This document shows positions 9,679 to 35,152 of a stretch of 36,833 nucleotides of DNA, piece after piece. The notes beneath the pieces are model-generated. The model was not told the DNA's origin, searched no databases, and saw only the letters and a list, made by a program, of their open reading frames with translations. Positions within the stretch are counted from its first letter, which is position 1, and each line of letters begins with the position of its first letter. The stretch is taken from the NCBI GenBank assembly GCA_030837445.1, contig JAUPKM010000075.1:1-36833 (forward strand), read 5' to 3'. This DNA is from Actinomycetota bacterium. Its GTDB lineage: Bacteria > Actinomycetota > Actinomycetes > S36-B12 > UBA10799. The translations under genes were made by a program, and so were the position numbers.

Positions 9679-10044
9679 ATGGGCAAGCGAATCCAGCTCG
9701 CGCAACGCCGCAAGTCCGTCGGCTGCAGCCAGGAGCAGCTCGCCGAGCGCCTCGGCGTCGACCGCTCGACCGTCGCCCGCTGGGAAGCCGGCGACACCGA
9801 GCCGCTCCCGTGGCTTCGCCCCAAGCTGGCCCGCATCCTCCAGGTCTCCCGCGACCAGCTCGACGCCTACCTCGACGAAGCCACGCTCACCCCGACCAAG
9901 GACGACGATCGCCTCGCCAACACCGTCCGTCATCCCGAGGCCGTTGACCTGGCCGCTGTCCACGGGCTGCGCGACAACCTCGACTCCCTCGACCGGGCCT
10001 ACGAGATCGCGCCGTCCAGCTCTCTCCTGGCCGAGACCGGCGCC
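9679..10044 (+). pseudogene. 5' fragment of an XRE-family regulator (HTH plus linker only)
   Basis: MGKRIQLAQRRKSVGCSQEQLAERLGVDRSTVARWEAGDTEP is an XRE HTH. Similarity to the usual actinobacterial XRE-TPR regulators ends at ...SSLLAETGA (10044). The open frame then runs out of frame through the next gene up to 10677. Confidence 0.6.
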
Positions 10045-10081
10045 TGTCCCTGCTCGCCTCGAGCTGACGAAGGGAACGCCG

Positions 10082-10807
10082 ATGACCCCGACGAACATCG
10101 ACCGAGCCAAGGACGCCGTCCGCAACCAGATCTGGGACGCGCTGGCCCGTGCCCAGGTGGTGCCGCCCGACGTCCACGGGCAATATTCCCCGACTTCGAC
10201 GGCGCCCACGCCACAGCAGACCGGCTCGCCGAGTTGCCCGTCTGGAAGAACGCCCGCCTCCTCGATCCCGGACACCTGACCGTCGCACCGGAGGAGGCGG
10301 CCGCTCACCAGACCGCCATGCAGATCGGCCAGCCCATCGATCTCGACCAGATGCAGCCCGTCGACCTGGTCGTCTGCGGCAGCGTCGCCGTCGATCGACG
10401 CGGCGCGCGGATCGGCAAGGGCGCCGGCTACTCCGACCTCGAAGTCGCCCTCCTCACCGAAGCCGGCCTGCTCACCGTCTCCACCACCATCGTGACCATC
10501 GTTCACGCCCTCCAAGTCGTCGAGTACGACCTGCCCGAGACCGACCACGACTTTCAGTGTCGACCTCATTGTCACCCCGGACGACGTCATCTCCTGCGGG
10601 CCGTCCCGCCGCCCTGTGGGTCTGTACTGGGACGAATTGGACCCAGAGACGGTTGCTGTCATCCCGGTGCTTCGTAGCTTGAGCGCATCGCATCGAGGGC
10701 TTCCAACTTCCCGAGGTGGTGAGCGTCGTGGGCCAGCGCTGGTGGATGGGCCGGATGTCTCTGGATCAAGAGGAAGCAAGCACGCCGATGAGATGGACAG
10801 GGACTAG
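10082..10807 (+). pseudogene. 5-formyltetrahydrofolate cyclo-ligase family gene with two compensating frameshifts
   Basis: The N-terminus MTPTNIDRAKDAVRNQIWDALARAQVVPPDVHG lies in one frame. The middle ...IFPDFDGAHATADRLAELPVWKNAR...PVDLVVCGSVAVDRRGARIGKGAGYSDLEVALLTEAGL...HALQVVEYDLPETDHDF lies in the frame of ORF 9679-10677. The C-terminal part FSVDLIVTPDDVISCGPSRRPVGLYWDELDPETVAVIPVLRSL is back in the first frame. The switches are at about 10181-10183 and at the T3 run 10552-10554. The 3' tail overlaps the convergent 786-aa gene. Confidence 0.65.
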
Positions 10808-13126
10808 ATGTTCGGCCGGGTCGACGTCCATTACTGGGTGCTCGGCAATCGCATCGAGCAGGTCGGCGATGCGCACGCCAAGGTCGGCATCAACGACGCT
10901 GTCCCTTGCCCGGCCTGCGACCGTCTCCATCTGCCCGGCGAGCCACGCTCCTAGCTTGCGGTGCACGCTGTGCAGCGTCCGCAGCGCCCACGCGACCCGT
11001 TCGGCCTCCGCCAACAGCGCGTCGTCGTTGACCGCGCGGGCGAAGCGGGCAACGTCAGCGCCGTCGGCAGGGCCGTCGACAGTGGCCCGCATCCAATGCC
11101 CGACCGCACTGGCGGTAGTGACCGTCGTTCCGGTCATCCGGTCCAGGATCTGCTGCTGCGTCAGGCCGCTGTCGCGGGCCGCCGCAGCGCGAGCGTGCCA
11201 GAAGTCCACCAGCATGCGCAGCGCCGCGTACTCCGTCCGCTCGGACAGCTTCTCGGCCAACGCCACTCGCAGGTCGGTGCGGGCGCCCCGGTCGACGAGC
11301 AGAAGCACGTCGCCGCTCTGCAACGCTTTCGCTGCGACCTGGGACAGGGTTGGGCCCCGGCGCCGGGTCACGAGCACGTTCGCCGGAAGCCAAAGCACTC
11401 GAGGACCGTCGGAGTCCTCCAGATGAACCGCGATCGCCAGCACATCATTGTCGATGCTGGTTTGCCCGCGGACGGACAGGGTGTCCGGGTCGTCCTCGGA
11501 GGCGGCGATGACCGCGCGTAGAACCCCAGTCACGTCCACGGCGAACGGGTCCCACGCCGCATCGTCCGCGCCAGCCAACTCGTCGGCGGCCACGGGCCGT
11601 AGGAAGCCACCGTCGACAATCCGGACTGCGGCCGCCGGATCGGGCTCGACTAGGCCGCAACCCGCAGTCACGCCCAGCACCGCAGCTGACACAGCGAAGG
11701 CCTCCATCCGCAGTTGCACCATCCGTGCCCTGGCCGCAACCGCTTGCCTCACCGCGCGGCGCCCTTCCATCGGCCCGCACGTCAACTGCAGCACCGCCGG
11801 TGCGGGCGGCAACGCCAGCAGCCCGGACTGGCCGCGCGGCAGCGTCCCCACGACGGCCACCGGCACGCCCGGATCCACGGTGCCACGCGCTGCGGCCATC
11901 ACTGTCTGCACCGCCACCGTCCGCTCCCAGCCGAGCGGGGTCCGCTGCGACTCCGCAAGGGCCGTTGTGACCGCGGCGGCTGCGGTCGCACCGCGCACCA
12001 GCAGCGTCGCCCGCTCCCCTGCCTCGACCCTGGCTGTGACCCAGTCGACGAGCTGGCCGGTCCGCGGCTGCTCAGTCGCTGCGCAGAGTGCGTCGGCGAG
12101 CGCGTCTGCAAACCTCAGCCATACGTCCCGGCTGCTGATCGTGTGCTCGGCATAGCCGCGGGCCGTTTCGACCAAGGCCCCGAGCCGCACCCGATACGGG
12201 TTCGTCCCGGCAAACCGGTCGTAAACGTCCGGACGGACCGGGGTTGACGCAGCCGCATGGAAGGCCGTCCAGGCCCATCGCAGCCCGACGGGCTCAACAT
12301 CCGCGGAACTTACCAACTGGCCCGCCGCCTTCCAGAGCTCGTCGACCGCCGAATCAAGCGCTCCATCAGATCGCGGCACGACAATGTCGACCACAGCGGA
12401 GCCGGTGGCCTGCAACTGCTGCACATTGGCGAGCATCGCCCCCGCGTCGGCCCTGCGGGGCACTGCGGCTGGCCCCGTCAGCATCGGCAGGCAAGCGGCG
12501 TCCCATGCCCACACCACCCCTCCGGCACCGCGAACCGCGTCCAAGGCGGTGTCGTATGGGTCGCCGGTCAGGTAGATGACCGGTACCCGGCGCCCGATCT
12601 GCTGTAGCACTGCGGTGAGTTCGTCAGCCGTGGCTGCTCCGGCCGCAATGATGACGCCTTCGAGCCGCTCAAGCAGCGGGAGTAGCCGCGCGATCCGCCC
12701 GGTCAGGTACACCCGGCCGCCGGCGTCCAGCTTCGGCCGGCCAATTACCTGCGGATACCCGGCCTCGGTCATCGCTGCGCGGGGTACGAAGTCAACCAGG
12801 CGTTGCTCCCCGAACGCCAGCTCGTCGTACAGGTCTCGGTCGGCCAGCCGCACTGATGCGACCCCGATATGAGGGTTCAGCCTGCCGCGGTGCAGCGCGG
12901 CCGTGACGACCGCGGACGCGGCTAGCACTACCGGCGCCGCAGTGACGACTGCCGGCACCACTACCGCCAACGGTATTCGGGCGGCCATCGCGGCGTCTGC
13001 AACCCGCAGCAGTTCGACGTCCAGCTCTGTCGGGGCGAACGGCAGCGGCTGGCCGCCGTCCCTTCCACGCGTCAACAGCCCGGACATGACGCAATCGCTC
13101 AGCCCGCGAGTACCGGCAACGCTCAT
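10766..13126 (-). CDS. 786-aa protein of unknown function, divergent partner of the helicase/DUF1998 operon
   Basis: Uninterrupted 2361-nt ORF with an ATG start and Ala/Val/Leu/Arg-rich globular-looking sequence. I see no Walker A, DEAH, HKD, SAM-binding or nuclease motif. Its size and position next to a DrmA/DrmB-like pair recall DrmE, but I cannot verify that. Confidence 0.75.
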   Translation of the reverse strand: MSVAGTRGLSDCVMSGLLTRGRDGGQPLPFAPTELDVELLRVADAAMAARIPLAVVVPAVVTAAPVVLAASAVVTAALHRGRLNPHIGVASVRLADRDLYDELAFGEQRLVDFVPRAAMTEAGYPQVIGRPKLDAGGRVYLTGRIARLLPLLERLEGVIIAAGAATADELTAVLQQIGRRVPVIYLTGDPYDTALDAVRGAGGVVWAWDAACLPMLTGPAAVPRRADAGAMLANVQQLQATGSAVVDIVVPRSDGALDSAVDELWKAAGQLVSSADVEPVGLRWAWTAFHAAASTPVRPDVYDRFAGTNPYRVRLGALVETARGYAEHTISSRDVWLRFADALADALCAATEQPRTGQLVDWVTARVEAGERATLLVRGATAAAAVTTALAESQRTPLGWERTVAVQTVMAAARGTVDPGVPVAVVGTLPRGQSGLLALPPAPAVLQLTCGPMEGRRAVRQAVAARARMVQLRMEAFAVSAAVLGVTAGCGLVEPDPAAAVRIVDGGFLRPVAADELAGADDAAWDPFAVDVTGVLRAVIAASEDDPDTLSVRGQTSIDNDVLAIAVHLEDSDGPRVLWLPANVLVTRRRGPTLSQVAAKALQSGDVLLLVDRGARTDLRVALAEKLSERTEYAALRMLVDFWHARAAAARDSGLTQQQILDRMTGTTVTTASAVGHWMRATVDGPADGADVARFARAVNDDALLAEAERVAWALRTLHSVHRKLGAWLAGQMETVAGRARDSVVDADLGVRIADLLDAIAEHPVMDVDPAEHLVPVHLIGVLASS

Positions 13127-13446
13127 GAGCCGGAACGATAGACCGGCCTAGACTGGCGTCGATCAGCCATTCGAGATCGAGTCTGTCGTATTAAACCCAA
13201 AATCGGTGATCTTCGCTTCACTGAGGCCTAAGATCAGGCTTGCATGGGGTGCCTTCCTTCGTTTCGGGTCTCCAGGCGCCGGATTGTGGCAGACCCTCCG
13301 AGTATTGCAACTCTTGGATTTAGGCAACAAGCTCCATCATCTGCTCTGTCGTACTTGGGTCGTACGGTGAGTCTCACATCAGCGCGGGCTGACCCAGTCG
13401 GCAGACTTTCGGACGGCGGCAGGTCCACACGGGGAGGACGCGGGTA
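13127..13446. promoter_or_regulatory. Divergent intergenic/promoter region, visibly lower GC than its flanks
   Basis: 320 bp between the two divergent start codons. It has AT-rich patches unusual for this DNA (GTATTAAACCCAAAATCGG, TTGGATTTAGGCAACAAG). GGGGAGGA lies 9 nt upstream of the GTG at 13447. No promoter hexamers can be assigned with confidence. Confidence 0.5.
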
Positions 13447-16400
13447 GTGAGCAGGAGCGAGCATGGCGCGGACCGCGACACTGATGACATCAGGAGCATG
13501 GCGGCCACCGACGACAGCGGCCAGCACGGGGCCTCGCACACCGTCGGTTCAGCTCTGACTGAGCAGGAGAGAGAGACGCTTCGCCGTGCAAAGATTTGCC
13601 GTGCCGCGGCTGGGTGCCTCACCCAGTCCGACCTGGTCAGCGAGTTGCCGCGGCTAAGCGGCAGCGACGTTCGGTGGGTGCGGCGGCGGACCCAGATCCG
13701 TCCGAACGCTCCGACTGCGGCGCTGGCTCGCGCGGTGCGCACCATATTGGTCCGCTCGGACGAGAAGCGGACCGCGTCGATCCTGCACGACTGCCTGCAC
13801 TACGGCGTGTTGTCTACCAATGTCGCCTCGCAACTGCCGATCCCCGAAATGGCCGCGCTGCTGGCCGGTGACATCGACGGCATGATCAGCCTCGGTGACC
13901 AGCCGATCTACCAGACGCTGCTTGACGCGGAGGAGTTCGGCACCACGCGGACCGCGCGGGTCTCGGCGTGGGCGTCGATGATCTGCATAGGCCATTCCGC
14001 CGACATCATGGCACTGGCCTGGCTGGTCGCCGACCTGCCGGAGGAGTGGCCAGATGCGCAGCGGCAGGCGCTGGTCAATGTGTGGGAGAGTGTCCGGTTC
14101 CGGACGCCGGACCTGCCAGAGAAGCCGATGCGTTTCGAGGACCTCGTCGACGTGGTCATCGACGCTGACGCCGAGATGCACAGCGACAAGTTCGAGGACG
14201 TCGACGAGCCCGCCATCCTCGAAAGGCCCGCCACAGCACACGCGAGCGTGACGGAGCCGTGCGGCGATGTCTCATGCCCCGCCACGGCTGACGCGCTGGC
14301 TGCGGGAGGTGGCGCCGCATCCGAGCTGGCCGAGCTCGACATGCCGTCGCTGCAGCGCGTGCTCGATGACTTAGAGCAGCTCCGCTGCCACTTGGAGGAC
14401 GAGGCGGCGCCCGCCCTCGCCGAAGCCGTCGCTGCGGGGCGTCCCCCGGCGGAGGCACATGTCGTCGCGGTCACCGTCTACACCCGACAGCTCACCTCGG
14501 TGTTCAACGCGCTTGCGAGGCTCACGGGGACTGCACGGCCGGAGACGCTTGCCGACGCACGGCACGCGGTCGAGGATGCGCTGGCTGCCACCATGGAGGC
14601 GGACCAGACGGCCGCCCGGCTGGACCGGGTCCGGCAAGTGGCGACGCTGCACGGGCCGGAGTACGTCGCAGCGGCCGTAGCCCGAGTCGCGGCCCTCGCC
14701 GCCGGCGTTGACGACACGACCTCGCCGGAGACACTGACCGGGCTGGAGGCGCTGTGCGACATCATCGACCTCGCTGGCGGTGACCCGCGCCGGGCCGTCG
14801 AACTCGGCGAGGTCGTCACCCGGAATCTGCCGGCCGCGATCCCGCTTCTCATGTTTGCGACCACCGCCGACGCCGTCACCTACACCGCAACACCCGCAGG
14901 CGCCGACTTCCCCGGCGAACCCGCCGCTGCCGGGCTCATCGCCACCCAGCTGGCGGCAGTGCCCGGTGAGGTCCAGGCGACCGCGAAAGCGCACGCCGCC
15001 GCGGCTGAGCCTGTCGATGCAGAATCCGTCGCCGAACCGGCCGGGGTAATGACACCCGCGCTCTACACCGACGTGCCACTCGCCGTTACGGCCGAGGAAA
15101 CCACTTCTCCAACGCCTGGCCGTGCTGTCGACGAGACCACTCCGGATGATGCGGTCGCGGGGCTCGACACCGACGCGGAGCCGGACCTCGAGAACGTCCT
15201 CGCCGGGCTCGACCTCACCGTTCCGCTCCCCGCCGCCCGGCAGCCCAGCCACGCAGCCCCCGAGAAGACCACCGAGCCCAGGCCGTCCGCCGGTGATACA
15301 CCCGACGTCGACACGTCCGACGCCAGCCACGTGGACATGCTCTACACCGATCTGCTCGACCACGACCAGTACGCGCTTGCGTACTGGCTCACCACCGCCG
15401 AAAGCGCTCCGGCCGCAGTGAGCACGGCGTATCGACTCGCCGCGCACGCTGCCGCGATCAAGACTTCCACCGGCTCAAATGCGGCGGCATTCACCGCCGC
15501 CGTCACCAACCTCGACGCCGGCACCGTCCGGGACATGCCCGACACCCAGATGCTGATCTACGCCGCCGCCGTCCGCGCCGGGTTGCTGTCCCCGTCGGCC
15601 GGCGCGGCAGGGCCGTTGCGCGACATCGCGACCAGCATTCCCCGCTACGGCAAGGCGGTCGAGGAGCTTCACGACGCGCTGCTCACGGCGATCTACAGCG
15701 GCATCTACCTCACCCCGTGCAGCATCAACGCTGTGGCCGAAGCCGCGGAAGCCGACCAGGTCCTGCAAACCCTCACGGCCGTCGCCAAAGAGCTACTCGC
15801 CAGGCCCCGTACCATCCTCTATGCCCCGGCGACCGAACTCTGGCAGACCTGGATGGCGCCAGACGGCTACCTCGGCCGCCCGCTGAGCATCATCGCAGCC
15901 GGGCAAATGGCCCCGTACGCTGTCGCGCTCATCCGCGACCGCATCGCGAACCTCCGTTCCCGGTCTACGCTCGAAGCGACCATCGACCGCGACACGCCCC
16001 GCAGCACTGGCAAGCGCAGCAAGCGGATAGAGTCCCGAGCCCGAGAGAAGCTGCTCGCCTGGACCGGCGAGGTCACCGAGCTGCTGTCGAACTGGATCAC
16101 CGCCTTCGAGAATCTCACCGGCCCCAACGCCGATTCCTGGATGAACGACCCGATGACCGAGCTGCGCACGCGGGTCGTCGCCGTTCGCGACCAGGCCCTG
16201 ACCGAGCTCGCCCGCCGCAGTGAAACCGACGTCGAAGCGCGTCACGCCGCCCACAAAGCCGGACTGCGGCTCCTCACCGACGCCCTCGACCTGCTCGTCG
16301 GCACTGCCGCAGTCCCCGTCGGGCCCGAGGTGTCGGCCGATCGGGTCCTCGGCGGACCGCTCACCGGTGCCGCCAACCTGCCGCTCACCGGCGCTGGCGA

Positions 16401-19400
16401 ACCCGCCTGGCCGATTACCGTCGACGACGTCCTCGCCGCGGTCCGGACCGCCCAGGCTGGCTCGGCCGGGTGGCGTGCCGCATACGAACAGCGGGCCGCC
16501 CGCCACGACCATGTCGGCACGCAGCTGCTCATCGAGCACGTGCGCTCCACCGACGCACAGCTGGCCGCTGTGCTCACCGACGCCCGGGATCAGGCCATCG
16601 CCACCTCCACCGCCAAACTCGACACCGTAGTCACGGCCCTGGACACCCGGATCGACTCCGACCGGCTCTTCAGCCGCGTCACCGTTGAGGAATGGACCGA
16701 CCTGTCCACTCGGGTCCGCGCCCACCAGGCTGGCCCGCGAGGTACGCGCCGCGACTACGGCGCCATGTTCGCTGACCTCGCCGCCATCGAGGGTGACCGG
16801 GCCGCCGCCGTCGGGCGCCGCATCGCCGCAGCCCGCGCCGCCCTCGACACGACCGGCATGGCTTCGGATGACGCAGACCGGATCCAGCGCTGCCTCGACG
16901 ACGGCGACCTCATCACTGCCGCCGAGTACATCGAGACGCTCGCCACCGACAGGAAACTGCCTGGCCCTCGCGACACGGTCGACCACGTGCGCCGGTTCTT
17001 CCCCGCGTTCTGCGATGTGTTCGCATCCCGCTGGAGCGCCAGCAACAGCACCCACCCGCTGCTGCGCGACCTGCAGACGGCGCTGCCGGCTGGCCGCGTC
17101 CCCAGCGACCCGGCACTGGCCGGGCTGCTCGCCGACGCCGGCATCGACCTCGCGGACCTGACCCGCGGCAAGACCATCGCCGAACGGGTCGACCACTGGA
17201 ACAAGCTCGCGGTCAGCCGCACGTTCGACGCCCGCATCGGCAACGTCAAGGCCGTCCTTGAGCAGATCGGGTTCATCTTCGACAAGTCGACCAATCCCCC
17301 TGTCAAGCGCGGCCAGGGCGGCGGGCGCGGCTCGTGGCTAGACCTGCACGGCGTGCGCGCCACCGCCGGCAAAGCAATCATTCCGGCGTTCGGGACGGCG
17401 ATGAGCCCGTCCGGAGACACGCTGCGGCTGCTCGCGGTGTGGAAGAGCCCGACGCCAGCCGAGCTGGTGGAGATGCTGCGCAGCGAACCGACCGACCAGT
17501 CGATCGTCCTGCTGTACTTCGGCTCCCTCGACGCCGCCGCCCGCCGCGAACTGGCCCGCCAGTTCCGTAGCGGCCGCAAGCTGGCCCCGACCGCCATCAT
17601 CGACGACGCCGCGATGGCCTACCTGGCCTGCCAGCCGACCCCCGGCCGGGACGTGACAATGGCGGTCACGCTGCCGTTCACGTTCTCGTCCCCGTTCACC
17701 CCAGACGTACCAGGTGTCAACGTGCCGCAGGAGATGTTCTACGGCCGGGCCGAGGAACGGGACAAGGTCGTCGACATGATGGGCCCGTGCGTCGTGTACG
17801 GCGGTCGGCAGCTGGGCAAATCCGCGTTACTGAGGGCCGCCGAGCGCGAGTTCGACGACGGCAGCACCCGGCACGCGATCTACGAGTCGATCTTCCACAT
17901 CGGCAAGTCTGCCCCGGCCGAAGCGGTCTGGACGACGCTGTGGCCGCGGCTGGCGGACAAGGGCATCGTCCCGGATACTGCCCCGGCCAGCGACGTCGCG
18001 GTCACGCTCACCGGGCACGTCGCCGACTGGGTGACCGCCCGCCCGAGCCGGCAACTGCTGCTCCTGCTGGACGAGTCCGACTCGTTTCTCGACGCCGACG
18101 CGAACGCCGCCGGCGGGATGTTCACGCAGGTCGTGCAGTTCAAGTTGCTGATGGAACGGACCCACCGCGCGGTCAAGATCGTTTTCGCCGGTCTGCACCA
18201 AACCGCCCGCTTCGAACGGCTCGCCAACCACCCGCTCGCGCACTTCGGCGAGCCGGTCTGCGTCGGGCCCCTCGCGCCGCAGGCCGCGTACGAACTGCTC
18301 ATCCGGCCGCTAGACGCACTCGGGTTCCGCTTCGCAGACACCGACCAGGCCGCCCGGGTGTTGGCCCTGACGAACAACCAGCCAGCGCTGATCCAGCTGT
18401 TCGCTGCCAGACTGCTGCGCAACCTGCAGGGCGCCCCGATTCTCGACGACGCGCCGCCGCAGACCATCGCCGCCGACGACGTCGAGCAGGTGTGGGCCGA
18501 CCCGACGCTGCGGCGCCAGTTCCGCAAGCGATTCGACTGGACCCTCGACCTGGACCCGCACTACAAGGTGATCGCGTACAGCGTTGCGCAGAACGCGCAC
18601 GCTGCCGGCGTCGACGCCGCGATGACCCCCGGCGTGCTGCGCGCCGAGTGCGAGCAGTGGTGGCCCGCAGGCTTCGCCGCCGAGGACATCCGCGCCGGCG
18701 AGTTCCGTGCCCTGCTCGACGAGTCTGTCGACCTCGGGGTGCTGTCGGTGACCGAGCGCGGCTACCGGCTGCGGACCCCGAACGTCCTCGACCTGCTTGG
18801 CAACCGCGACGAGGTCGACGAGGTCCTCGAGCGGGCCGCGTCCTTCGAGGCACCGGAGTCGTTCGACGGATCACTGATGCGGCCGGTGTACGGCGCCGGC
18901 CCGACCCGGGCGCCGCTAACCGCGCAGCAGATCGCCGACTTGCTCGCCCCCCGCCGCCAGGTCCGCCTGCTGGTCGGGTCTAGCGCGCTCGACGTCGACC
19001 GGTGCCTGGCGGTGCTAGAGAAGGAGAACGGGAACGCCGCGACCGGGAATCGGAGAGCGGTACTGGTGCGGGCCACGCCTGGCGGGCTGGAGAACAAGTG
19101 CCGCAGCATGCCGCTGCACAGCGCCGGGCACCACGCCGTCGTCCTGGTCGACATGAAGGACGCCACCGCCGAGCAGGCGCTGCACGTGTGGCGGCGGGCG
19201 CGGGCGCTGATCGCGTCGCACACCGGCGGCACCCTCGGGATCGTGCAAGTGAGCGGCCCGGCGCAGGCGGCCGCATGGCCGGTCGCGGCGCGGGAGTCGG
19301 ACACTTCCTCCGGCCTGACCGAGCTGCGCCGCTACGACGACACCGACCTGCGGCTGTGGTTCGCGCAGGAGTCGCTGCCATTCCAGGACGCCGCGTCCCG

Positions 19401-19842
19401 TGCCGAACTGCTCGCTACGACCGGCGGCTGGCCGAAACTGCTGGACCGGCTGGCGCAGCACCTGACCGGCCTGGACAGCGGCACGGTCAGCGACCCGCTC
19501 GACGACATCCGGACCTGGCTCGGTAGCAACTCCCAGGACCTGGTCGCCGCAGCCGGCGTGATCGCCGACGGATCGCTGCAGCAGGCGTGGGAGTTCCTCG
19601 TGCGGCAGATGGCCGGTGAGGCGACAGATCTGGAGACGTTCGCCGAGTTCCTCCAGCTGCACGCCGACACCGGCGAGCCCGGAAGCGACCAGCTCACTGC
19701 CACCGGCCTCGCAGGTAACGGATACGGCGGCGCCGAGGACGTCGTCGAGGTCCTCCGCGCGCTGGGGGTGCTGCTTGGCGACAGCAAGGGCCAGTACCGG
19801 ACCGAGCCGGTGCTGGCCGCCGCGACCCGGAGGGACGAGTGA
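13447..19842 (+). CDS. Giant (2131-aa) protein with a STAND/Orc-Cdc6-type P-loop NTPase module in its C-terminal third
   Basis: Single 6396-nt ORF. FYGRAEERDKVVDMMGPCVVYGGRQLGKSALL contains Walker A (17800-17823). RQLLLLLDESDSFL contains Walker B (18055-18081). VCVGPLAPQAAYELLIRPL and LTNNQPALIQLFAARLL resemble the helical sensor motifs of STAND NTPases. About 1400 residues precede the NTPase with no motif I recognise. They include an acidic Ala/Thr/Pro-rich low-complexity stretch (about 14880-15370). Confidence 0.85.
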   Translation: MSRSEHGADRDTDDIRSMAATDDSGQHGASHTVGSALTEQERETLRRAKICRAAAGCLTQSDLVSELPRLSGSDVRWVRRRTQIRPNAPTAALARAVRTILVRSDEKRTASILHDCLHYGVLSTNVASQLPIPEMAALLAGDIDGMISLGDQPIYQTLLDAEEFGTTRTARVSAWASMICIGHSADIMALAWLVADLPEEWPDAQRQALVNVWESVRFRTPDLPEKPMRFEDLVDVVIDADAEMHSDKFEDVDEPAILERPATAHASVTEPCGDVSCPATADALAAGGGAASELAELDMPSLQRVLDDLEQLRCHLEDEAAPALAEAVAAGRPPAEAHVVAVTVYTRQLTSVFNALARLTGTARPETLADARHAVEDALAATMEADQTAARLDRVRQVATLHGPEYVAAAVARVAALAAGVDDTTSPETLTGLEALCDIIDLAGGDPRRAVELGEVVTRNLPAAIPLLMFATTADAVTYTATPAGADFPGEPAAAGLIATQLAAVPGEVQATAKAHAAAAEPVDAESVAEPAGVMTPALYTDVPLAVTAEETTSPTPGRAVDETTPDDAVAGLDTDAEPDLENVLAGLDLTVPLPAARQPSHAAPEKTTEPRPSAGDTPDVDTSDASHVDMLYTDLLDHDQYALAYWLTTAESAPAAVSTAYRLAAHAAAIKTSTGSNAAAFTAAVTNLDAGTVRDMPDTQMLIYAAAVRAGLLSPSAGAAGPLRDIATSIPRYGKAVEELHDALLTAIYSGIYLTPCSINAVAEAAEADQVLQTLTAVAKELLARPRTILYAPATELWQTWMAPDGYLGRPLSIIAAGQMAPYAVALIRDRIANLRSRSTLEATIDRDTPRSTGKRSKRIESRAREKLLAWTGEVTELLSNWITAFENLTGPNADSWMNDPMTELRTRVVAVRDQALTELARRSETDVEARHAAHKAGLRLLTDALDLLVGTAAVPVGPEVSADRVLGGPLTGAANLPLTGAGEPAWPITVDDVLAAVRTAQAGSAGWRAAYEQRAARHDHVGTQLLIEHVRSTDAQLAAVLTDARDQAIATSTAKLDTVVTALDTRIDSDRLFSRVTVEEWTDLSTRVRAHQAGPRGTRRDYGAMFADLAAIEGDRAAAVGRRIAAARAALDTTGMASDDADRIQRCLDDGDLITAAEYIETLATDRKLPGPRDTVDHVRRFFPAFCDVFASRWSASNSTHPLLRDLQTALPAGRVPSDPALAGLLADAGIDLADLTRGKTIAERVDHWNKLAVSRTFDARIGNVKAVLEQIGFIFDKSTNPPVKRGQGGGRGSWLDLHGVRATAGKAIIPAFGTAMSPSGDTLRLLAVWKSPTPAELVEMLRSEPTDQSIVLLYFGSLDAAARRELARQFRSGRKLAPTAIIDDAAMAYLACQPTPGRDVTMAVTLPFTFSSPFTPDVPGVNVPQEMFYGRAEERDKVVDMMGPCVVYGGRQLGKSALLRAAEREFDDGSTRHAIYESIFHIGKSAPAEAVWTTLWPRLADKGIVPDTAPASDVAVTLTGHVADWVTARPSRQLLLLLDESDSFLDADANAAGGMFTQVVQFKLLMERTHRAVKIVFAGLHQTARFERLANHPLAHFGEPVCVGPLAPQAAYELLIRPLDALGFRFADTDQAARVLALTNNQPALIQLFAARLLRNLQGAPILDDAPPQTIAADDVEQVWADPTLRRQFRKRFDWTLDLDPHYKVIAYSVAQNAHAAGVDAAMTPGVLRAECEQWWPAGFAAEDIRAGEFRALLDESVDLGVLSVTERGYRLRTPNVLDLLGNRDEVDEVLERAASFEAPESFDGSLMRPVYGAGPTRAPLTAQQIADLLAPRRQVRLLVGSSALDVDRCLAVLEKENGNAATGNRRAVLVRATPGGLENKCRSMPLHSAGHHAVVLVDMKDATAEQALHVWRRARALIASHTGGTLGIVQVSGPAQAAAWPVAARESDTSSGLTELRRYDDTDLRLWFAQESLPFQDAASRAELLATTGGWPKLLDRLAQHLTGLDSGTVSDPLDDIRTWLGSNSQDLVAAAGVIADGSLQQAWEFLVRQMAGEATDLETFAEFLQLHADTGEPGSDQLTATGLAGNGYGGAEDVVEVLRALGVLLGDSKGQYRTEPVLAAATRRDE

Positions 19843-22016
19843 GCCGCACCCTGCCGCAGCTCGTTGAGCAGCTCGTCCTCGACGCGGCCCGGCACGCGGT
19901 CCAGGCGCCAGCGCTGGCCGGGACCGACCCGGACCGATTCGCGCAGGCGAACCGGCGCGGCATGCTACAGCTGATCGCGCGCCACCGGCCGCTGCGCGAG
20001 GAGCTCGCCGCCCGGTACGTCGACGAGCAGGGGCTGCAGCAGCCGAGCCTGCGAGCCTTGTTCGCCGGTGACGCGGCCGTGGCCGAGGCGGCCGCGACCA
20101 CCCTCACGGACCCGGCTCGCGTGCGCCGTCTGGCCCGCGCCTGGGTGCGCCGCAACGTGCACACACCGACCGGTACCGCCACCATCGCTGCCGCGACGGC
20201 GGGGCCAACGGCGGTGGACGGGCGGCGGGACGCGCGGATCGCCCGGAGGATCGCCGACCTGCGGGAGGCCCGCGACGTCGCCCGTGCCCAGCGCAACATC
20301 GCGCAGGTCGAGGCACGCGACTTGGCCCAGCAGCTGGCCGCCACCCATGGGGACCTGGAGGAGGGTGGCACCGTCATCGAGGCGCTGCGCGCCGAGCTAA
20401 ACCTTGAGCGGGAGGCGGCCGCAGCCCGGTCTGCCGACCTGGTCCCCGCCGCCCGGGTCTTCGCCGCCGCGGCCGCCCCGTCCAGCATCGGCGACACCGA
20501 CGACCCACGTGCCCGTGAGCTCGCCGACGACGCCACCGCCGCCCCGTCCGACGCAAGGCTCGCTGCGGCTCTCGCCACCGCCGGGGTGGCACCGGCCGCG
20601 TTTCGGACGGTGCTGGCCATGTTGCTCGCTCCGCCGCCGGCCCCATCGCCCGCGGTGGCGACGCCGCGGGAGATCGCGTTGACCCCGCTCGGCGGCGGCA
20701 CCGACATCGGCGGGTCGGCGATGCTGGTCTCTGCCGGCGACGTGCGGATCCTCGTCGACGCCGGGATGCGGCCTAAGCGCCGCATCGACGACGCCGGTCC
20801 GCCGCACATCGACGTCGTCCGCCACGGCGGCCGGCTGGACGCGATCGTGATCACGCACGCGCACAACGACCATGCCGGGTACGTACCGGCGCTGACGGCC
20901 GAGTTCGGGAACGTTCCGGTGTTCTGCAGCGCCGAAACCGCGGCGTTGCTGCCGACGATGTGGCAGGACTCAGTCAAGGTGTTCGACCGGACCCGCAGCG
21001 ACTACGTCGAGGCAGACGAGCCGCCCGCCGAGCCGCCGTACACGCGAACGCAGGTGTTCGCGGCACAGAGGCGTCTCGAGCCGCTCGCGCTTGGCCGGCC
21101 CGTCGAGGTGGCCGACGGCGTCACCATCGAGCTGTTCACGGCGGGGCACATCCTCGGCGCCGCCGGCGTCGTCGTCACTGCCGGCGACGGCCGGGTCACC
21201 GTGACCGGCGACGTGTCCACCCTCGCGCAGCTGTCCGTGTCTGGTCTGATCGTGCCGGACGCGGCCCGCGGCTCGGATCTGCTCGTCATCGAGTCGACGT
21301 ACTGTGGCCGCCGCAGCACCAACAGGGACCTGGAGGTGGAGAAGTTCATCAACATGGTCGCCGACACCGTGTTCGGCGGAGGGCGGGTGCTGGTGCCGGC
21401 GTTCGCGCTCGGACGTGCTCAGGAGGTCGCGCTCACGCTGCGGGACCGGCTGCCGGACGTGCCAGTCCTCATCGACGGGCTGGCCCGGCATGTGTCGTGG
21501 ATCTACGAGCAGGAGACCGCAGGGGCCGATCGGCCGCTGCGGATCTTCGGTGGCGGGGTGCAGGAGGTCCGCGATGCCAATCGGCCATACCTGCTCAAGA
21601 GCTTTCGCAAGGGTGTGGTCGTGACGACCTCCGGGATGCTCGCCGCCGGGCCGGCGGTCCGGTGGGCGCGGGAGATCCTGCCGGACCCGGACTCGGCGCT
21701 GCTGGTCGCCGGCTATCAGGACGAGGACTCCCCCGGAGCGGAACTGCTCGAGCTGTCCAACGGCGGCCACGGCACCGGCCGGGGCAAGCCGCGGACGTTC
21801 CGCCTCGACGACCACGACGTCGCGGTGAACGCGCGGGTGGAACAGTTCGGTCTGTCGGCGCACGCCGACCGGCGCGGCCTGTCTGCGATCATCAACGAAG
21901 TCGCGCCGCACGAGGTGATGCTGGTGCACGGCATGGCACGCAAGCAGCGGGACTTCGCGGACAACCTGACCCGGCGCGGTTATTCCGTCGCGCCAACCCG
22001 GCACTGGCAGCGGTGA
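19839..22016 (+). CDS. Metallo-beta-lactamase fold, beta-CASP-type nuclease with a ~280-aa coiled-coil-like N-terminal extension
   Basis: GTG start overlaps the stop of the giant gene (GTGA, 19839-19842). MBL motifs: GGSAMLVSAGDVRILVDAG and ITHAHNDHAGYVP (HxHxDH at 20856-20873). Beta-CASP-like blocks: LLVIESTYCG, VLVPAFALGRAQE, GLSAHAD and VMLVHG. The N-terminal 280 aa are Ala/Arg/Glu-rich heptad-like sequence. Confidence 0.85.
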   Translation: MSRTLPQLVEQLVLDAARHAVQAPALAGTDPDRFAQANRRGMLQLIARHRPLREELAARYVDEQGLQQPSLRALFAGDAAVAEAAATTLTDPARVRRLARAWVRRNVHTPTGTATIAAATAGPTAVDGRRDARIARRIADLREARDVARAQRNIAQVEARDLAQQLAATHGDLEEGGTVIEALRAELNLEREAAAARSADLVPAARVFAAAAAPSSIGDTDDPRARELADDATAAPSDARLAAALATAGVAPAAFRTVLAMLLAPPPAPSPAVATPREIALTPLGGGTDIGGSAMLVSAGDVRILVDAGMRPKRRIDDAGPPHIDVVRHGGRLDAIVITHAHNDHAGYVPALTAEFGNVPVFCSAETAALLPTMWQDSVKVFDRTRSDYVEADEPPAEPPYTRTQVFAAQRRLEPLALGRPVEVADGVTIELFTAGHILGAAGVVVTAGDGRVTVTGDVSTLAQLSVSGLIVPDAARGSDLLVIESTYCGRRSTNRDLEVEKFINMVADTVFGGGRVLVPAFALGRAQEVALTLRDRLPDVPVLIDGLARHVSWIYEQETAGADRPLRIFGGGVQEVRDANRPYLLKSFRKGVVVTTSGMLAAGPAVRWAREILPDPDSALLVAGYQDEDSPGAELLELSNGGHGTGRGKPRTFRLDDHDVAVNARVEQFGLSAHADRRGLSAIINEVAPHEVMLVHGMARKQRDFADNLTRRGYSVAPTRHWQR

Positions 22017-25599: not shown

Positions 25600-25695
25600 C
25601 CCGCGCAGCCCGCCTTCCCCCGGTCCGCTGGCGCTCCCCCACCCAGCCCGACGCCCCCAACCTTGTGCCCGTCCTGCTCGAAGGAGACGCCTCCG

Positions 25696-27534: not shown

Positions 27535-27617
27535 CTCCTCCGCTGTCCGGGCTGCTCATACAGGCCGGTGACCCGGTTGCGGTCGCGCACGGGCTGGCCA
27601 CCTCCGCCGCGGCCAGC

Positions 27618-27684
27618 GCGTCATGAGTGTCAAGTACCGGGTTATATGGAGACCATCAAACCCGGTACTTGACACTCATGACGC
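27618..27684. repeat. Perfect 26-bp inverted repeat with a 15-nt spacer
   Basis: GCGTCATGAGTGTCAAGTACCGGGTT (27618-27643) is the exact reverse complement of 27659-27684. The spacer is ATATGGAGACCATCA. It lies 84 bp after the DUF1998 gene stop and 120 bp before the ISL3 end. There is no U-tract, and the arms are less GC-rich than the surroundings. Confidence 0.9.
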
Positions 27685-27852
27685 ACTGCGGGGGTCCGAC
27701 ATCCGCTGGATCCTGGTGTGGGGGAGAAATCGTGACAGTTCCGCCCACCCAGCGCATCCCGCACCGCGGGCAGACCATCCGACACGTGTCCGAGCCGTCG
27801 ACGAATTCGGTTCTGGCGCTGATCTTGTGGTGCGGTGGGACGAGGCTTGGGG

Positions 27853-35099: not shown

Positions 35100-35152
35100 A
35101 CGACGTACCTTGAACGGGCACGGACCCAAACGGGCACGAGAGGAGGGTGAAC

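What the first reader, a model, noticed from the sequence alone, without database searches (positions are those of the whole stretch)
13447..19842. 2131-aa protein: about 1400 unassignable residues ahead of a STAND-like NTPase
Seen: the P-loop (GGRQLGKS, 17800-17823), Walker B (LLLLLDESD, 18055-18081) and the helical motifs VCVGPLAPQAAYELL and NNQPALIQLFAARLL lie at about aa 1430-1700. They follow the order found in STAND/Orc-type NTPases. The preceding 1400 aa contain no catalytic motif I can name. That part includes an acidic Ala/Asp/Thr/Pro low-complexity linker (about 14880-15370) and long Ala-rich helical stretches. Established: antiviral STAND proteins (Avs-type) pair a central NTPase with sensor and effector domains. 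Inference: placing such a module in an operon, translationally coupled to a nuclease and followed by a DrmAB-like pair, is an architecture I do not recognise. The giant N-terminal region may be a sensor or scaffold.
Basis: partly seen in the sequence, partly recalled or inferred. Interest (0 to 1): 0.7.

Follow-up and report, generated by a model that had tools for sequence, protein, structure and literature searches.

The report
Giant ATPase hub of unnamed defence-like systems
The 2131-residue gene is real and is the conserved core of a large, unannotated family of roughly 2000-residue bacterial ATPases that pair with interchangeable nuclease or helicase partners, so it is probably a new kind of anti-phage system; here it sits inside a methylase-less DISARM-like gene set.

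Summary
ORF 13447-19842 (+) codes for 2131 aa. The Walker A, Walker B and linker coordinates are exact, and the stop overlaps the start of a beta-CASP metallo-beta-lactamase (MBL) nuclease gene (GTGA).

A structure model and Foldseek place residues about 1430-1780 with ORC/Cdc6 and Arch-ATPase-type AAA+ domains plus a winged helix. A second, P-loop-less AAA-like domain follows. Residues 1-1240 are all-helical with two disordered linkers and match no solved structure.

The family is not rare. An exhaustive profile search finds 2436 clusters at E<=1e-30, and at least 573 places in species genomes encode a relative. These are mostly Actinomycetota, with some cyanobacteria and Proteobacteria. None has a Pfam, NCBIfam or PADLOC model, and I found no paper describing it.

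The giant pairs with alternative neighbours:
- a beta-CASP nuclease (about 40 loci);
- a DpdF/DinG-like helicase plus an unknown 780-aa protein (about 25 loci);
- an unknown 390-aa protein;
- a PLD-SNF2 fusion.

DrmE/DrmA/DrmB are genuine but facultative neighbours. They appear in several different gene orders and never with a methyltransferase or DrmC.

Best reading: an ATP-driven sensor/scaffold that controls a swappable effector. No experiment exists.

The parts
10766..13126 (-). DrmE-like protein (786 aa), divergently transcribed from the giant gene
   Evidence: Pfam DrmE_C scores 45.2 bits against a cut-off of 27, E 1.1e-11. NCBIfam DrmE_fam gives 8.5e-08, below its cut-off. Orthologues sit next to the giant in L003, L010, L023, L043, L094, L095, L099 and L104.
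13127..13446 (.). 320-bp divergent intergenic region between drmE and the giant gene. It has lower GC and a GGGGAGGA ribosome-binding site 8 nt before the GTG start.
   Evidence: Read directly from the sequence. No sigma-70 consensus promoter or intrinsic terminator was found; the scan is not informative for actinobacterial promoters.
13447..19842 (+). Giant protein, 2131 aa: the conserved hub of the family
13558..14856 (+). aa 38-470: fast-evolving all-helical N-terminal region with long helical hairpins. Candidate trigger-recognition or partner-specific part.
   Evidence: The AF2 model is all-alpha, with pLDDT about 60-90. Similarity is detectable only in the roughly 11 closest of 73 loci. 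There is no significant PDB fold match.
14890..15315 (+). aa 482-623: acidic Ala/Asp/Thr/Pro disordered linker
   Evidence: pLDDT is below 50 throughout. It is the least conserved block in the alignment.
15316..17046 (+). aa 624-1200: all-helical middle domain, conserved across the whole family
   Evidence: AF2 pLDDT is mostly 80-93. tblastn similarity is seen in at least 90% of 73 loci. No PDB fold match was found, best E 0.4.
17299..17730 (+). aa 1285-1428: conserved alpha/beta domain directly before the ATPase. Motifs are PAFGS, YFG, an invariant D in xDD, and LPF..NPY. Fold unassigned.
   Evidence: AF2 secondary structure. 40-sequence alignment A5. The profile has no meaningful PDB match.
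17731..18426 (+). aa 1429-1660: active AAA+ core and lid. It contains the EMFYGR motif, Walker A GGRQLGKS (17800-17823), Walker B LLLLLDESD (18055-18081), FAGLH, R1588 (candidate arginine finger), GPL, and R1637 (candidate sensor 2).
   Evidence: Conservation is 98-100% in 79 sequences. Foldseek top hits are PAB2304 (2qen, E 2.7e-07, TM 0.62 on target), archaeal ORC2/Cdc6/Orc1 and eukaryotic Orc/Cdc6. Pfam AAA_22 and AAA_16 are below threshold.
18556..18786 (+). aa 1704-1780: winged helix-turn-helix after the lid, highly conserved (YKVIAY, WWPxGF, GYRLRTPNVL)
   Evidence: AF2 shows three helices plus a beta-hairpin. Invariant columns are listed. The ORC/Cdc6 alignments extend through it.
18958..19446 (+). 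aa 1838-2000: second, degenerate AAA-like alpha/beta domain with no P-loop (G-S-x-A). It ends in a conserved TGGWP motif.
   Evidence: AF2 shows five beta-alpha units. The Walker A position is not conserved as GK[ST], while W1995 is 100% conserved. Foldseek aligns about 700 columns to tandem AAA+ proteins ClpA/B/C, Cdc48 and NSF.
19447..19839 (+). aa 2001-2131: helical tail that ends in a small helix/beta-hairpin (winged-helix-like) unit
   Evidence: AF2 model.
19839..22016 (+). 725-aa beta-CASP metallo-beta-lactamase nuclease with an Ala-rich N-terminal extension of about 275 aa. Its start overlaps the giant's stop (GTGA).
   Evidence: Pfam Lactamase_B, Beta-Casp and RMMBL are all above their cut-offs. 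The motifs HAHNDH, GHILG, TGDVS, ESTY, SAHAD and VHG can be read. The closest solved chains are aCPSF1 2ycb (2e-40), IntS11, FttA, RNase TTHA0252, Cas14 and CPSF73. It lies directly downstream of the giant in about 40 loci.
22135..25599 (+). DrmA helicase (1154 aa), with GGGKSEAY and DELH motifs
   Evidence: PADLOC DrmA 4.5e-94. NCBIfam DrmAS 8.7e-107, below its cut-off. PDB DrmA 7s9v at 3.3e-55.
25663..27534 (+). DrmB (DUF1998-type, 623 aa, Cys-rich)
   Evidence: PADLOC DrmB 5e-39. NCBIfam DrmB_fam 1.3e-18, below its cut-off.

Best explanation
The 2131-aa protein is the signature component of a widespread, so far undescribed family of modular nucleic-acid conflict systems that are probably anti-phage or anti-plasmid.

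Its C-terminal 850 residues are the engine. In order they are a conserved alpha/beta domain, a catalytically intact ORC/Cdc6-like AAA+ ATPase with lid and winged helix, a second inactive AAA-like domain, and a helical/winged-helix tail.

Its N-terminal 1240 residues are a helical arm. The family-wide conserved middle part (aa 624-1200) most likely serves as scaffold. The first roughly 600 residues evolve fast and most likely recognise the trigger or fit the local partner.

Proposed mechanism (inferred, not shown): a foreign nucleic acid or protein is detected, and ATP binding or hydrolysis then drives a change in conformation or oligomeric state. That change licenses the partner enzyme encoded next door. 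In this window the partner is a translationally coupled beta-CASP nuclease of the RNA-cleaving CPSF/RNase J/Cas14 type. The predicted outcome is degradation of transcripts or nucleic acids of the invader, or of the cell as abortive infection.

Giant plus nuclease form a self-sufficient two-gene module. DrmE, DrmA and DrmB around it belong to a methyltransferase-less, DrmC-less DISARM-like clade that is a frequent but optional neighbour. They are either a cooperating helicase front end or a second system in the same island.
For: Shown by tool results:
- The ORF is real and the ATPase motifs are 98-100% conserved in 79 homologues.
- The AF2 model of aa 1241-2131 has pLDDT 80. Foldseek top hits are PAB2304 and archaeal and eukaryotic ORC/Cdc6, and tandem AAA+ proteins align over about 700 columns.
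- The N-terminus is all-alpha and has no PDB counterpart.
- The family is large: 6210 representatives at E<=1e-3 and 2436 at E<=1e-30. Nearly all of the top 150 are 1800-2400 aa with the module at the C-terminus. At least 573 places in species genomes encode a relative. All sampled members are named 'hypothetical'.
- Partners are swappable in 91 loci. They are beta-CASP (about 40 loci), DpdF/PsyrT/DinG-like helicase plus X780 (about 25), c10 (8, plus a Salinibacter plasmid), and a PLD+SNF2 fusion (2 cyanobacteria).
- A distant relative follows a pPIWI-RE gene on an Azospirillum plasmid.
- The context is that of defence islands. Nearest neighbours include Wadjet JetA/D, MADS, pPIWI-RE parts, DarT, PD-Lambda-1 and PD-T4-6, and McrBC/PIN in L002. 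AbiEii and PIN toxins and an IS lie in the window.
- The family is present on 28 plasmids and on no phage.
- The nuclease active-site motifs are intact and its relatives are RNA-cleaving enzymes.
- aa 1-600 diverge fast while aa 640-1200 are conserved.
- DrmEAB is adjacent in 10 loci in at least five gene orders, but is absent from most giant+MBL loci. The giant is absent next to the close DrmEAB relative L106.

Inferred: the sensor/scaffold roles, ATP-driven licensing of the partner, and the RNA target.
Against: - There is no experimental evidence for any member.
- The defence role rests on gene neighbourhood and domain logic, and no background rate was computed for the neighbour scan.
- No physical giant-nuclease interaction was modelled.
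- The giant has no recognisable repeat sensor, so 'sensor' for the N-terminus is a guess from its evolutionary rate.
- The pre-ATPase alpha/beta domain is unassigned and could itself be enzymatic.
- RNA specificity of the beta-CASP is inferred from relatives and from the His in the SAHAD motif, and some beta-CASP enzymes cut DNA.
- Family membership of the lower-scoring two thirds of the 6210 hits was not inspected.
Confidence: 0.55

Rival explanations
1. All five genes form one integrated machine: a DISARM variant in which the giant ATPase plus the beta-CASP nuclease replace the methyltransferase and the PLD nuclease DrmC. The DrmAB helicase, with DrmE, would detect and load on invading DNA. 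The giant would couple that event to the nuclease.
For: - DrmE, DrmA and DrmB are genuine.
- No DNA methyltransferase or PLD is found in any ORF of the 36.8-kb window, nor in L003 or L010.
- The same five genes recur in at least five different orders across giants only 40-47% identical: window/L010/L023, L003/L094/L095, L042, L043 and L099/L104. That pattern argues for selection on linkage and not for one inherited arrangement.
- In the window the four plus-strand genes are co-directional, with gaps of -4, 118 and 63 nt.
Against: - About 34 of about 40 giant+MBL loci have no DrmA/B/E within 6-10 kb.
- The close DrmEAB relative L106 has no giant or MBL within 7-8 kb and carries an EVE+NOV_C protein instead.
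- The giant also works with entirely different partners.
- Only the giant and the MBL gene are translationally coupled.
Confidence: 0.25
2. The giant is an Avs-like antiviral STAND receptor that senses a phage protein through its long helical region and activates a separate MBL effector, as in AVAST types 1 and 2.
For: - The P-loop, Walker B and helical/winged-helix order resemble STAND proteins.
- A profile hit to the STAND protein PH0952 has E 0.033, but covers the P-loop only.
- The NLR NRC2 appears among the fold hits at rank 19.
- AVAST systems include MBL-fold partners (NCBIfam Avs1a model; abstract of the 2026 Avs2-trypsin-MBL preprint listed).
Against: - NACHT and NB-ARC gave no hit and AAA_16 scored 14 bits against a 32.6 cut-off.
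- No PADLOC Avs model hit the giant.
- The best fold matches are ORC/Cdc6 and PAB2304.
- A fully conserved arginine sits four residues after the FAGLH strand, which fits an AAA+ arginine finger (this reading is inference).
- There is no TPR, WD40 or LRR sensor, and the long region is N-terminal, not C-terminal.
- The MBL is a beta-CASP enzyme, with only a 0.006-0.02 match to Avs1a.
Confidence: 0.1
3. The giant is not immune-related. It would be a large scaffold or ATPase for a cellular or mobile-element process, such as RNA 3' end processing or decay with the CPSF-like nuclease, or plasmid/chromosome maintenance. The defence genes would simply be its neighbours in a variable genomic island.
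For: - The nuclease's nearest relatives, aCPSF1/FttA and IntS11, are housekeeping transcription-termination enzymes.
- ORC/Cdc6-like ATPases are classically replication factors.
- The family occurs on large plasmids.
Against: - Distribution is patchy, with variable partners that are typical defence effectors (PLD-SNF2, DinG/DpdF-like helicase, pPIWI-RE).
- Neighbours are defence genes in many unrelated loci.
- The context is flanked by IS and toxin-antitoxin genes.
- Some islands carry more than one copy (L002).
- The N-terminus evolves fast.
- No conserved housekeeping neighbour was seen.
Confidence: 0.1

Closest known systems
ORC/Cdc6 initiators and the archaeal 'Arch ATPase' PAB2304 (PDB 2qen, 1w5s, 1fnn, 2v1u)
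   Same: They are the best structural matches for aa about 1430-1780. The shared layout is a P-loop AAA+ core with two helices between strands 2 and 3, then a lid, then a winged helix. The giant's Walker A and B motifs, candidate arginine finger and candidate sensor 2 are conserved across its homologues.
   Different: Sequence identity is only 12-15% and no Pfam family reaches its cut-off. In the giant the module is embedded at the C-terminus of a 2131-aa protein. It is preceded by 1240 helical residues and an unknown alpha/beta domain, and followed by a degenerate second AAA-like domain. The genomic context is an island, not a replication origin.
BREX BrxC/PglY with BrxB (an ORC/Cdc6-like scaffold ATPase plus an inactive STAND/ORC-like protein)
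   Same: Both are large defence-type ATPases of the ORC/Cdc6 clade with winged helices, proposed to act as an oligomeric scaffold that coordinates partner enzymes. Both pair an active with an inactive AAA-like unit (PMC12839542, read). In the giant the two units are fused in one chain.
   Different: No BrxC, PglY or DUF499 model matches the giant. In BrxC the ATPase is N-terminal, and in the giant it is C-terminal. The window has no PglZ and no PglX methyltransferase. The partners are nucleases and helicases.
DISARM class 2 (DrmE, DrmA, DrmB, DrmC, DrmMII)
   Same: DrmA, DrmB and a DrmE_C-containing protein flank the giant.
   Different: There is no methyltransferase and no PLD DrmC. DrmA and DrmB score far below the NCBIfam equivalog cut-offs (358 against 950, and 67 against 240), so they form a divergent actinobacterial clade. 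The giant and the beta-CASP nuclease are not DISARM components, and they mostly occur without Drm genes.
AVAST/Avs systems with MBL-fold partners (Avs1a; Avs2-trypsin-MBL)
   Same: Both combine a large NTPase with a separately encoded metallo-beta-lactamase-fold hydrolase in a defence context.
   Different: The giant's NTPase is not NACHT or NB-ARC-like by profile or by nearest fold, and it has no C-terminal repeat sensor. The MBL here is a CPSF-type beta-CASP with an RMMBL domain.
RNA-cleaving beta-CASP nucleases (aCPSF1/FttA, IntS11, CPSF73, RNase J, type VII CRISPR Cas14). This entry concerns the partner gene.
   Same: All three Pfam domains and all the metal-binding and beta-CASP motifs are present. 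E-values are 2e-40 to aCPSF1 and 9e-30 to Cas14. Like Cas14, the enzyme appears to be recruited as an effector by a non-nuclease targeting component.
   Different: There are no KH domains and no Cas7/Cas5 partner. It has its own Ala-rich N-terminal extension of about 275 aa. It scores far below the equivalog cut-offs (204 against 580 for aCPSF1, and 188 against 800 for Cas14).
pPIWI-RE systems (Burroughs et al. 2013, PMC3702460)
   Same: A distant giant relative (2403 aa) lies directly after a pPIWI-RE gene on an Azospirillum plasmid. pPIWI-RE system parts are neighbours in two actinobacterial loci. The 'helicase, then 780-aa protein, then giant' variant has a DinG/DpdF-like helicase.
   Different: The published triad is REase-DinG-pPIWI-RE and includes no giant ATPase. 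The 780-aa partner shows no similarity to pPIWI-RE by BLASTP, hhalign, Pfam or PADLOC. The window has no PIWI gene.

Membership tests
STAND NTPases (NACHT / NB-ARC / Avs) | Match to a STAND NTPase profile (NACHT, NB-ARC, AAA_16, Avs models) at family threshold | tested here: not met
   Pfam gave only AAA_16 at 14.1 bits (cut-off 32.6) and AAA_22 at 16 bits (cut-off 27). There was no NACHT or NB-ARC hit. No PADLOC Avs model matched.
STAND NTPases (NACHT / NB-ARC / Avs) | Tripartite layout with a repeat-type sensor (TPR/WD40/LRR) C-terminal to the NTPase and a fused effector | tested here: not met
   After the NTPase come a winged helix, a degenerate AAA-like domain and a helical tail. Pfam finds no repeat or effector domain.
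STAND NTPases (NACHT / NB-ARC / Avs) | Nearest structural neighbours are STAND proteins | tested here: inconclusive
   The top hits are PAB2304 and ORC/Cdc6. The first NLR (NRC2) is at rank 19 with TM 0.19-0.22. The PH0952 STAND hit has E 0.033 and covers the P-loop only.
ORC/Cdc6-like AAA+ ATPases (fold-level clade) | Walker A, Walker B, a conserved polar residue after strand 4, an arginine finger and a sensor-2 arginine in the lid | tested here: met
   The Walker A G-G-R-x-L-G-K residues and the DExD residues of Walker B are 100% conserved. H1584 and R1588 are 100% conserved and R1637 is 98% conserved, in 79 sequences. Assigning R1588 and R1637 to finger and sensor 2 is inference from their position in the model.
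ORC/Cdc6-like AAA+ ATPases (fold-level clade) | AAA+ core plus lid plus C-terminal winged helix, with ORC/Cdc6 as best structural match | tested here: met
   Foldseek hits: 2qen E 2.7e-07 (TM 0.62 on target), 1w5s, 1fnn, 2v1u, 2qby, and eukaryotic Orc/Cdc6. The winged helix at aa 1704-1780 is seen in the model.
ORC/Cdc6-like AAA+ ATPases (fold-level clade) | Sequence-profile membership (AAA_22 or similar) at threshold | tested here: inconclusive
   The window protein scores 16 bits against a 27 cut-off. Some relatives pass or nearly pass: the Salinibacter giant scores 29.7 and the Azospirillum one 25.2.
DISARM (class 2) | DrmA helicase and DrmB (DUF1998) pair | tested here: met
   PADLOC DrmA 4.5e-94 and DrmB 5e-39. 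PDB DrmA 3.3e-55. Both are below the NCBIfam equivalog cut-offs.
DISARM (class 2) | DrmE | tested here: met
   Pfam DrmE_C scores 45.2 bits, above the cut-off of 27. Only the C-terminal domain matches.
DISARM (class 2) | Cognate DNA methyltransferase (DrmMII) for self-marking | tested here: not met
   No DNA methyltransferase domain is present in any plausible ORF of the window or in the called genes of L003 and L010.
DISARM (class 2) | PLD-family nuclease DrmC | tested here: not met
   No PLD domain is present in the window.
BREX BrxC/PglY (DUF499-type ATPases) | Match to BrxC/PglY/DUF499 models, with PglZ and PglX in the locus | tested here: not met
   The giant has no PADLOC or Pfam hit to these models. 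No PglZ or PglX domain is present in the window.
Beta-CASP metallo-beta-lactamase nucleases (partner gene 19839-22016) | Lactamase_B, Beta-Casp and RMMBL domains, with the HxHxDH motif and beta-CASP motifs A to C | tested here: met
   All three Pfam domains are above their cut-offs. HAHNDH, ESTY and SAHAD can be read. PDB relatives score 2e-40 and weaker.
pPIWI-RE systems | A pPIWI-RE protein (X, MID and RNaseH_pPIWI_RE domains) in the locus | tested here: not met
   None is present in the window. The X780 partner of other giants is unrelated. Only the Azospirillum relative has one.

The most novel reading that the evidence does not exclude
The giant ATPase is the hub of a new, widespread class of modular immune systems with at least four effector configurations. 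In this locus it physically links a methylation-independent DISARM helicase core (DrmE/A/B) to an RNA-cleaving CPSF-like nuclease. DISARM-type DNA sensing would then be read out as ATP-gated RNA destruction instead of restriction guided by a methylation mark.
Probability: 0.2. Interest if true: 0.85.

Novelty: new variant of a known kind. Interest (0 to 1): 0.64.

Why it matters
A protein family with thousands of sequence clusters, each about 2000 residues long, is spread over hundreds of actinomycete species and some cyanobacteria and Proteobacteria. It has no domain model, no name and no paper that I could find.

Its pattern is a conserved ATPase hub with a fast-evolving end and interchangeable nuclease or helicase neighbours inside defence islands. 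That is the signature that has repeatedly led to new immune systems.

If it is confirmed:
- It would add a major defence family for Actinomycetota, whose defence repertoire has been little characterised (10.1101/2025.01.08.631966).
- It would give a second example, after type VII CRISPR, of a CPSF-like beta-CASP RNase recruited for immunity.
- It would show that the DISARM helicase core can operate, or at least persist, without any methyltransferase.

An isolate with a 90% identical locus, Micromonospora chaiyaphumensis DSM 45246, makes the question directly testable.

Tried and rejected
- **Word-indexed homologue search.** It returned only 11 and then 9 proteins and wrongly suggested a rare family. 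The exhaustive profile search corrected this. The second word-indexed search was wasted.
- **Sequence searches on the giant.** Pfam, NCBIfam, PADLOC and PDB sequence or profile searches gave nothing above threshold.
- **Fold search on aa 2-1200.** There was no significant match, best E 0.4.
- **Profile of the pre-ATPase domain against the PDB.** The only hits were a spurious designed-repeat protein and noise. I considered a PD-(D/E)xK nuclease reading and dropped it, because no ExK-type motif is conserved.
- **Is the roughly 780-aa upstream partner (X780) of Streptomyces-type giants a diverged DrmE or pPIWI-RE?** This was rejected by BLASTP, hhalign at probability 0.3% or less, and Pfam and PADLOC with no hit.
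- **c10 and X780 profiles against the PDB.** No hits.
- **Phage genomes.** No relative of the ATPase module was found.
- **Rfam and tRNA scans.** Nothing lies inside the locus.
- **Promoter and terminator scan of the divergent intergenic region.** No sites were found; the scan is not informative for actinobacteria.
- **Literature.** Searches on DISARM with MBL, beta-CASP defence, PIWI-RE, and Streptomyces defence discovery found no description of this family.

Full report
**1. The observation**

The window is 70% GC. ORF 13447-19842 on the plus strand is 2131 codons long. Its codon-position GC (0.72/0.51/0.87) is the pattern of real genes in this DNA. The long antisense ORFs inside it show the mirror-image pattern.

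The protein is identical to a deposited 'hypothetical protein' of an Actinomycetota MAG whose contig is the window itself. A GGGGAGGA ribosome-binding site precedes the GTG start.

GGRQLGKS is aa 1452-1459 (nt 17800-17823) and LLLLLDESD is aa 1537-1545 (nt 18055-18081). The two helical motifs follow. The acidic low-complexity stretch corresponds to aa 482-623. The stop codon overlaps the start of the next gene in GTGA.

**2. Anatomy of the protein**

No Pfam, NCBIfam or PADLOC model and no PDB sequence reaches significance anywhere in the protein. Only AAA_22 and AAA_16 touch aa 1431-1584, both below threshold. A profile of 11 homologues hits only the P-loop of the STAND protein PH0952, at E 0.033.

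I modelled the protein in two pieces with alignments of nine homologues.

*aa 1241-2131 (pLDDT 80) contains, in order:*
- an alpha/beta domain (aa about 1285-1428);
- a P-loop core with two helices between strands 2 and 3;
- a lid;
- a three-helix and beta-hairpin winged helix (aa 1704-1780);
- a second five-stranded alpha/beta domain (aa 1838-1960);
- a helical region carrying the motif TGGWP;
- a small terminal helix/hairpin unit.

Foldseek against the PDB puts the Pyrococcus ATPase PAB2304 first (E 2.7e-07, TM 0.62 on the target). Archaeal ORC2, Cdc6 and Orc1 and eukaryotic Orc/Cdc6 follow. Tandem AAA+ machines (ClpA/B/C, Cdc48, NSF) align over about 700 columns, which fits two AAA-like units in a row. 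The first NLR appears at rank 19.

In 79 family members, the following are conserved:
- the Walker A G-G-R-x-L-G-K residues, the Walker B D-E-x-D residues, the A-G-L-H residues of FAGLH, R1588, N1594 and GPL: 100%;
- R1637: 98%.

The second unit has no GK[ST] loop but keeps W1995 in every sequence. I read R1588 as an arginine finger and R1637 as sensor 2 from their positions. That is inference.

*aa 2-1200 (pLDDT 70)* are entirely helical. Disordered stretches lie at 243-291 and 482-623. There is no significant structural neighbour in the PDB (best E 0.4).

The alpha/beta domain before the ATPase has conserved PAFGS, YFG, xDD and LPF..NPY motifs. It has no PDB sequence match and no nuclease-type motif.

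**3. Size and spread of the family**

The word-indexed search found only 11 relatives. An exhaustive HMM search with the C-terminal module gave a very different picture:
- 6210 representative proteins at E<=1e-3;
- 4057 at E<=1e-10;
- 2436 at E<=1e-30.

Nearly all of the top 150 are 1800-2400 residues long with the module at the C-terminal end. The shorter ones look like fragments. Every named member sampled is 'hypothetical protein'.

They are overwhelmingly Actinomycetota (Streptomyces, Actinomadura, Amycolatopsis, Micromonospora, Nonomuraea and others). Phormidium, Scytonema, Brasilonema, a deltaproteobacterial MAG and Candidatus Parabeggiatoa also appear.

Micromonospora chaiyaphumensis DSM 45246 carries a 90% identical copy in the same five-gene layout. 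Relatives are on 28 plasmids, including ones from Streptomyces, Brasilonema, Salinibacter, Azospirillum and Bradyrhizobium. None is in a phage genome.

The answer is both. aa 640-1200 are detectably similar in at least 90% of 73 loci. aa 1-600 are similar only in the roughly 11 closest loci.

**4. Neighbours**

I compared 91 loci by tblastn and by clustering all called ORFs. The giant keeps one of several alternative immediate partners:

| Type | Partner | Loci |
|---|---|---|
| A | beta-CASP MBL nuclease directly downstream, often overlapping | about 40, including the window |
| B | large helicase, then an unknown 750-850-aa protein (X780), then the giant | about 25 |
| C | giant, then an unknown 380-400-aa protein (c10) | 8, plus a Salinibacter plasmid and P0011 |
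| D | giant, then a 1115-aa PLD+SNF2 fusion | Scytonema and Brasilonema |

The type B helicase matches DpdF and PsyrT models in its core and a type IV DinG model in its N-terminal part.

On an Azospirillum plasmid a 2403-aa relative follows a bona fide pPIWI-RE gene. X780, DrmE, c10 and pPIWI-RE are mutually unrelated by BLASTP and hhalign.

A PADLOC scan covered the 134 nearest non-core neighbours. It found Wadjet JetA/JetD, MADS genes, pPIWI-RE system parts, DarT, PD-Lambda-1, PD-T4-6, HEC-06 and others. Individual loci show McrBC, PIN and a second giant paralogue, and Wadjet.

The window itself carries an ISL3 element, an AbiEii toxin and a PIN toxin. No background rate was computed, so this evidence is qualitative.

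**5. The nuclease**

The 725-aa product of 19839-22016 has Lactamase_B, Beta-Casp and RMMBL domains above their cut-offs. All the expected motifs are readable (HAHNDH, GHILG, TGDVS, ESTY, SAHAD, VHG).

Its closest solved relatives all cleave RNA:
- aCPSF1 (2e-40), PH1404, IntS11 and FttA;
- RNase TTHA0252;
- the type VII CRISPR effector Cas14 (9e-30);
- CPSF73.

NCBIfam agrees, at scores well below the equivalog cut-offs. Its first roughly 275 residues are an Ala-rich extension. That extension is conserved only among close relatives: tblastn coverage is 0.6-0.8 in distant type A loci.

**6. The DISARM genes**

- 22135-25599 is DrmA: PADLOC 4.5e-94, PDB DrmA 3.3e-55.
- 25663-27534 is DrmB: PADLOC 5e-39.
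- The minus-strand gene 10766-13126 has a DrmE C-terminal domain above the Pfam cut-off.

All three fall well below the NCBIfam equivalog cut-offs, so they form a divergent clade. No DNA methyltransferase and no PLD protein is encoded anywhere in the window.

The five genes recur in at least five orders:
- DrmE divergent, then giant-MBL-DrmA-DrmB (window, L010, L023);
- DrmB-DrmA-DrmE divergent from giant-MBL (L003/L004, and the same divergent layout in L094 and L095);
- DrmA-DrmB-x-giant-MBL (L042);
- giant-MBL-DrmE-DrmA-DrmB (L043);
- DrmE-DrmA-DrmB convergent with giant-MBL (L099, L104).

However, about 34 of about 40 giant+MBL loci lack Drm genes within the fetched flanks. Among metagenomic loci whose DrmA is at least 50% identical, L106 has no giant within 7-8 kb. 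It carries an EVE+NOV_C protein before DrmE and again has no DNA methyltransferase. L096, L098, L100, L103 and L105 also show none, but their flanks are shorter.

The two modules are therefore separable but preferentially linked.

**7. Interpretation**

The conserved, catalytically intact ATPase engine, the fast-evolving distal region, the interchangeable nucleic-acid enzymes next door and the island context together point to one reading. The giant is an ATP-dependent sensor/scaffold that controls a partner effector. In this window the partner is an RNA-type beta-CASP nuclease made by coupled translation.

This works like other ATPase-plus-nuclease defence systems. At the level of domain logic it also resembles BREX BrxC with its inactive STAND partner BrxB (PMC12839542). 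It fails the membership tests for STAND/Avs, BrxC, canonical DISARM and pPIWI-RE systems.

Whether DrmEAB feeds into the giant or is an independent neighbour cannot be decided from sequence. I give the integrated reading about 0.25.

**8. Novelty**

I found no description of this family in the searchable literature. The 2025 Streptomyces defence screen deliberately chose systems small enough to synthesise.

I rate the finding a new variant of a known kind: an NTPase hub with swappable effectors. The rating rests entirely on computational evidence.

Noticed in passing
window 27805-29636: An ISL3-family insertion sequence with perfect 25-nt terminal inverted repeats (27805-27829 and 29612-29636) lies 270 nt after drmB. 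Its transposase is split into two overlapping minus-strand ORFs (27853-28386 and 28137-29438), so it is probably frameshifted. In L010 and L042 a 279-362-aa gene (c36) follows drmB, and the window has none there, so the IS may have displaced it.
   Followed up: partly
window 27614-27688: A 36-nt, 92% complementary hairpin with a 3-nt loop lies 80 nt downstream of the drmB stop. It could be a terminator without a T-run or a protein-binding palindrome.
   Followed up: no
window 9679-10677 (+): A 332-aa protein fuses an XRE-type HTH (HTH_3) to a 5-formyltetrahydrofolate cyclo-ligase-like domain. It is convergent with the 3' end of drmE. This is an unusual regulator/enzyme fusion at the edge of the locus.
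   Followed up: no
window 2016-2100 (-): tRNA-Leu(GAG) is the only RNA gene in the window. It is a possible integration site for the variable island, which carries the toxin-antitoxin, IS and defence-like genes.
   Followed up: no
window 30153-31798 (-): An M4 (thermolysin-type) peptidase is split into two abutting ORFs. The propeptide is in 30956-31798 and the catalytic and helical domains are in 30153-30956. This is probably a frameshifted pseudogene.
   Followed up: no
window 31943-33042 (+) and 35147-35919 (+): Two probable toxin-antitoxin pairs. One is an unannotated 150-aa ORF overlapping an AbiEii nucleotidyltransferase toxin by 4 nt. The other is an 88-aa ORF overlapping a PIN-domain protein by 4 nt.
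   Followed up: no
L092 (Azospirillum ramasamyi plasmid NZ_CP029830.1) 1-13145: The operon runs: a hypothetical protein (CDS runs past the locus start), then pPIWI-RE (846 aa), then a 2403-aa relative of the giant, then an AAA_33 protein. The first 106 residues of the giant relative match the tail of the RNaseH_pPIWI_RE profile. This links a distant branch of the ATPase family to PIWI-RE systems. Similar 'RNaseH domain-containing' annotations appear in Bradyrhizobium and Microvirga plasmids.
   Followed up: partly
L005, L051, L053-L057, L061, L067-L072, L075, L079, L080, L084 (about 20 loci): A strictly ordered three-gene set: a DpdF/PsyrT/DinG-like helicase of about 1250-1500 aa, then an unknown protein of about 780 aa (X780), then the giant. 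X780 has many invariant residues (for example H53, N59, E112, D162, H191, D375, H482) and no detectable relative in Pfam, PADLOC or the PDB.
   Followed up: partly
L078 12633-15980 and L082 12570-15917 (Scytonema, Brasilonema): In these cyanobacteria the giant is followed by a 1115-aa PLD-nuclease + SNF2-helicase fusion. This fuses the two activities that class 1 DISARM encodes as DrmC and DrmD.
   Followed up: partly
L106 5349-6764: A close relative of the window's DrmE-DrmA-DrmB set has no giant or MBL gene. It is instead preceded by a 471-aa EVE (modified-base reader) + NOV_C protein, again without a DNA methyltransferase. This suggests that this actinobacterial DrmEAB clade works with exchangeable accessory modules.
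   Followed up: partly
L002 (Streptomyces sp. NPDC055185) 24690-26180 and 10001-16180: Two paralogous giants (2059 aa and 1968 aa) lie about 8 kb apart in one island. The island also holds McrBC, PIN proteins and an N6 methyltransferase.
   Followed up: no
L018, L021, L022, L033, L034, L037, L039, L081: In Nonomuraea, Actinomadura and Sphaerimonospora a Ser/Thr protein kinase lies directly upstream of giant+MBL on the opposite strand (344-624 aa as called; Pfam Pkinase tested on the L034 member). An SNF2 helicase of about 950 aa often lies beyond it. This may be a further accessory module or a neighbouring system.
   Followed up: partly
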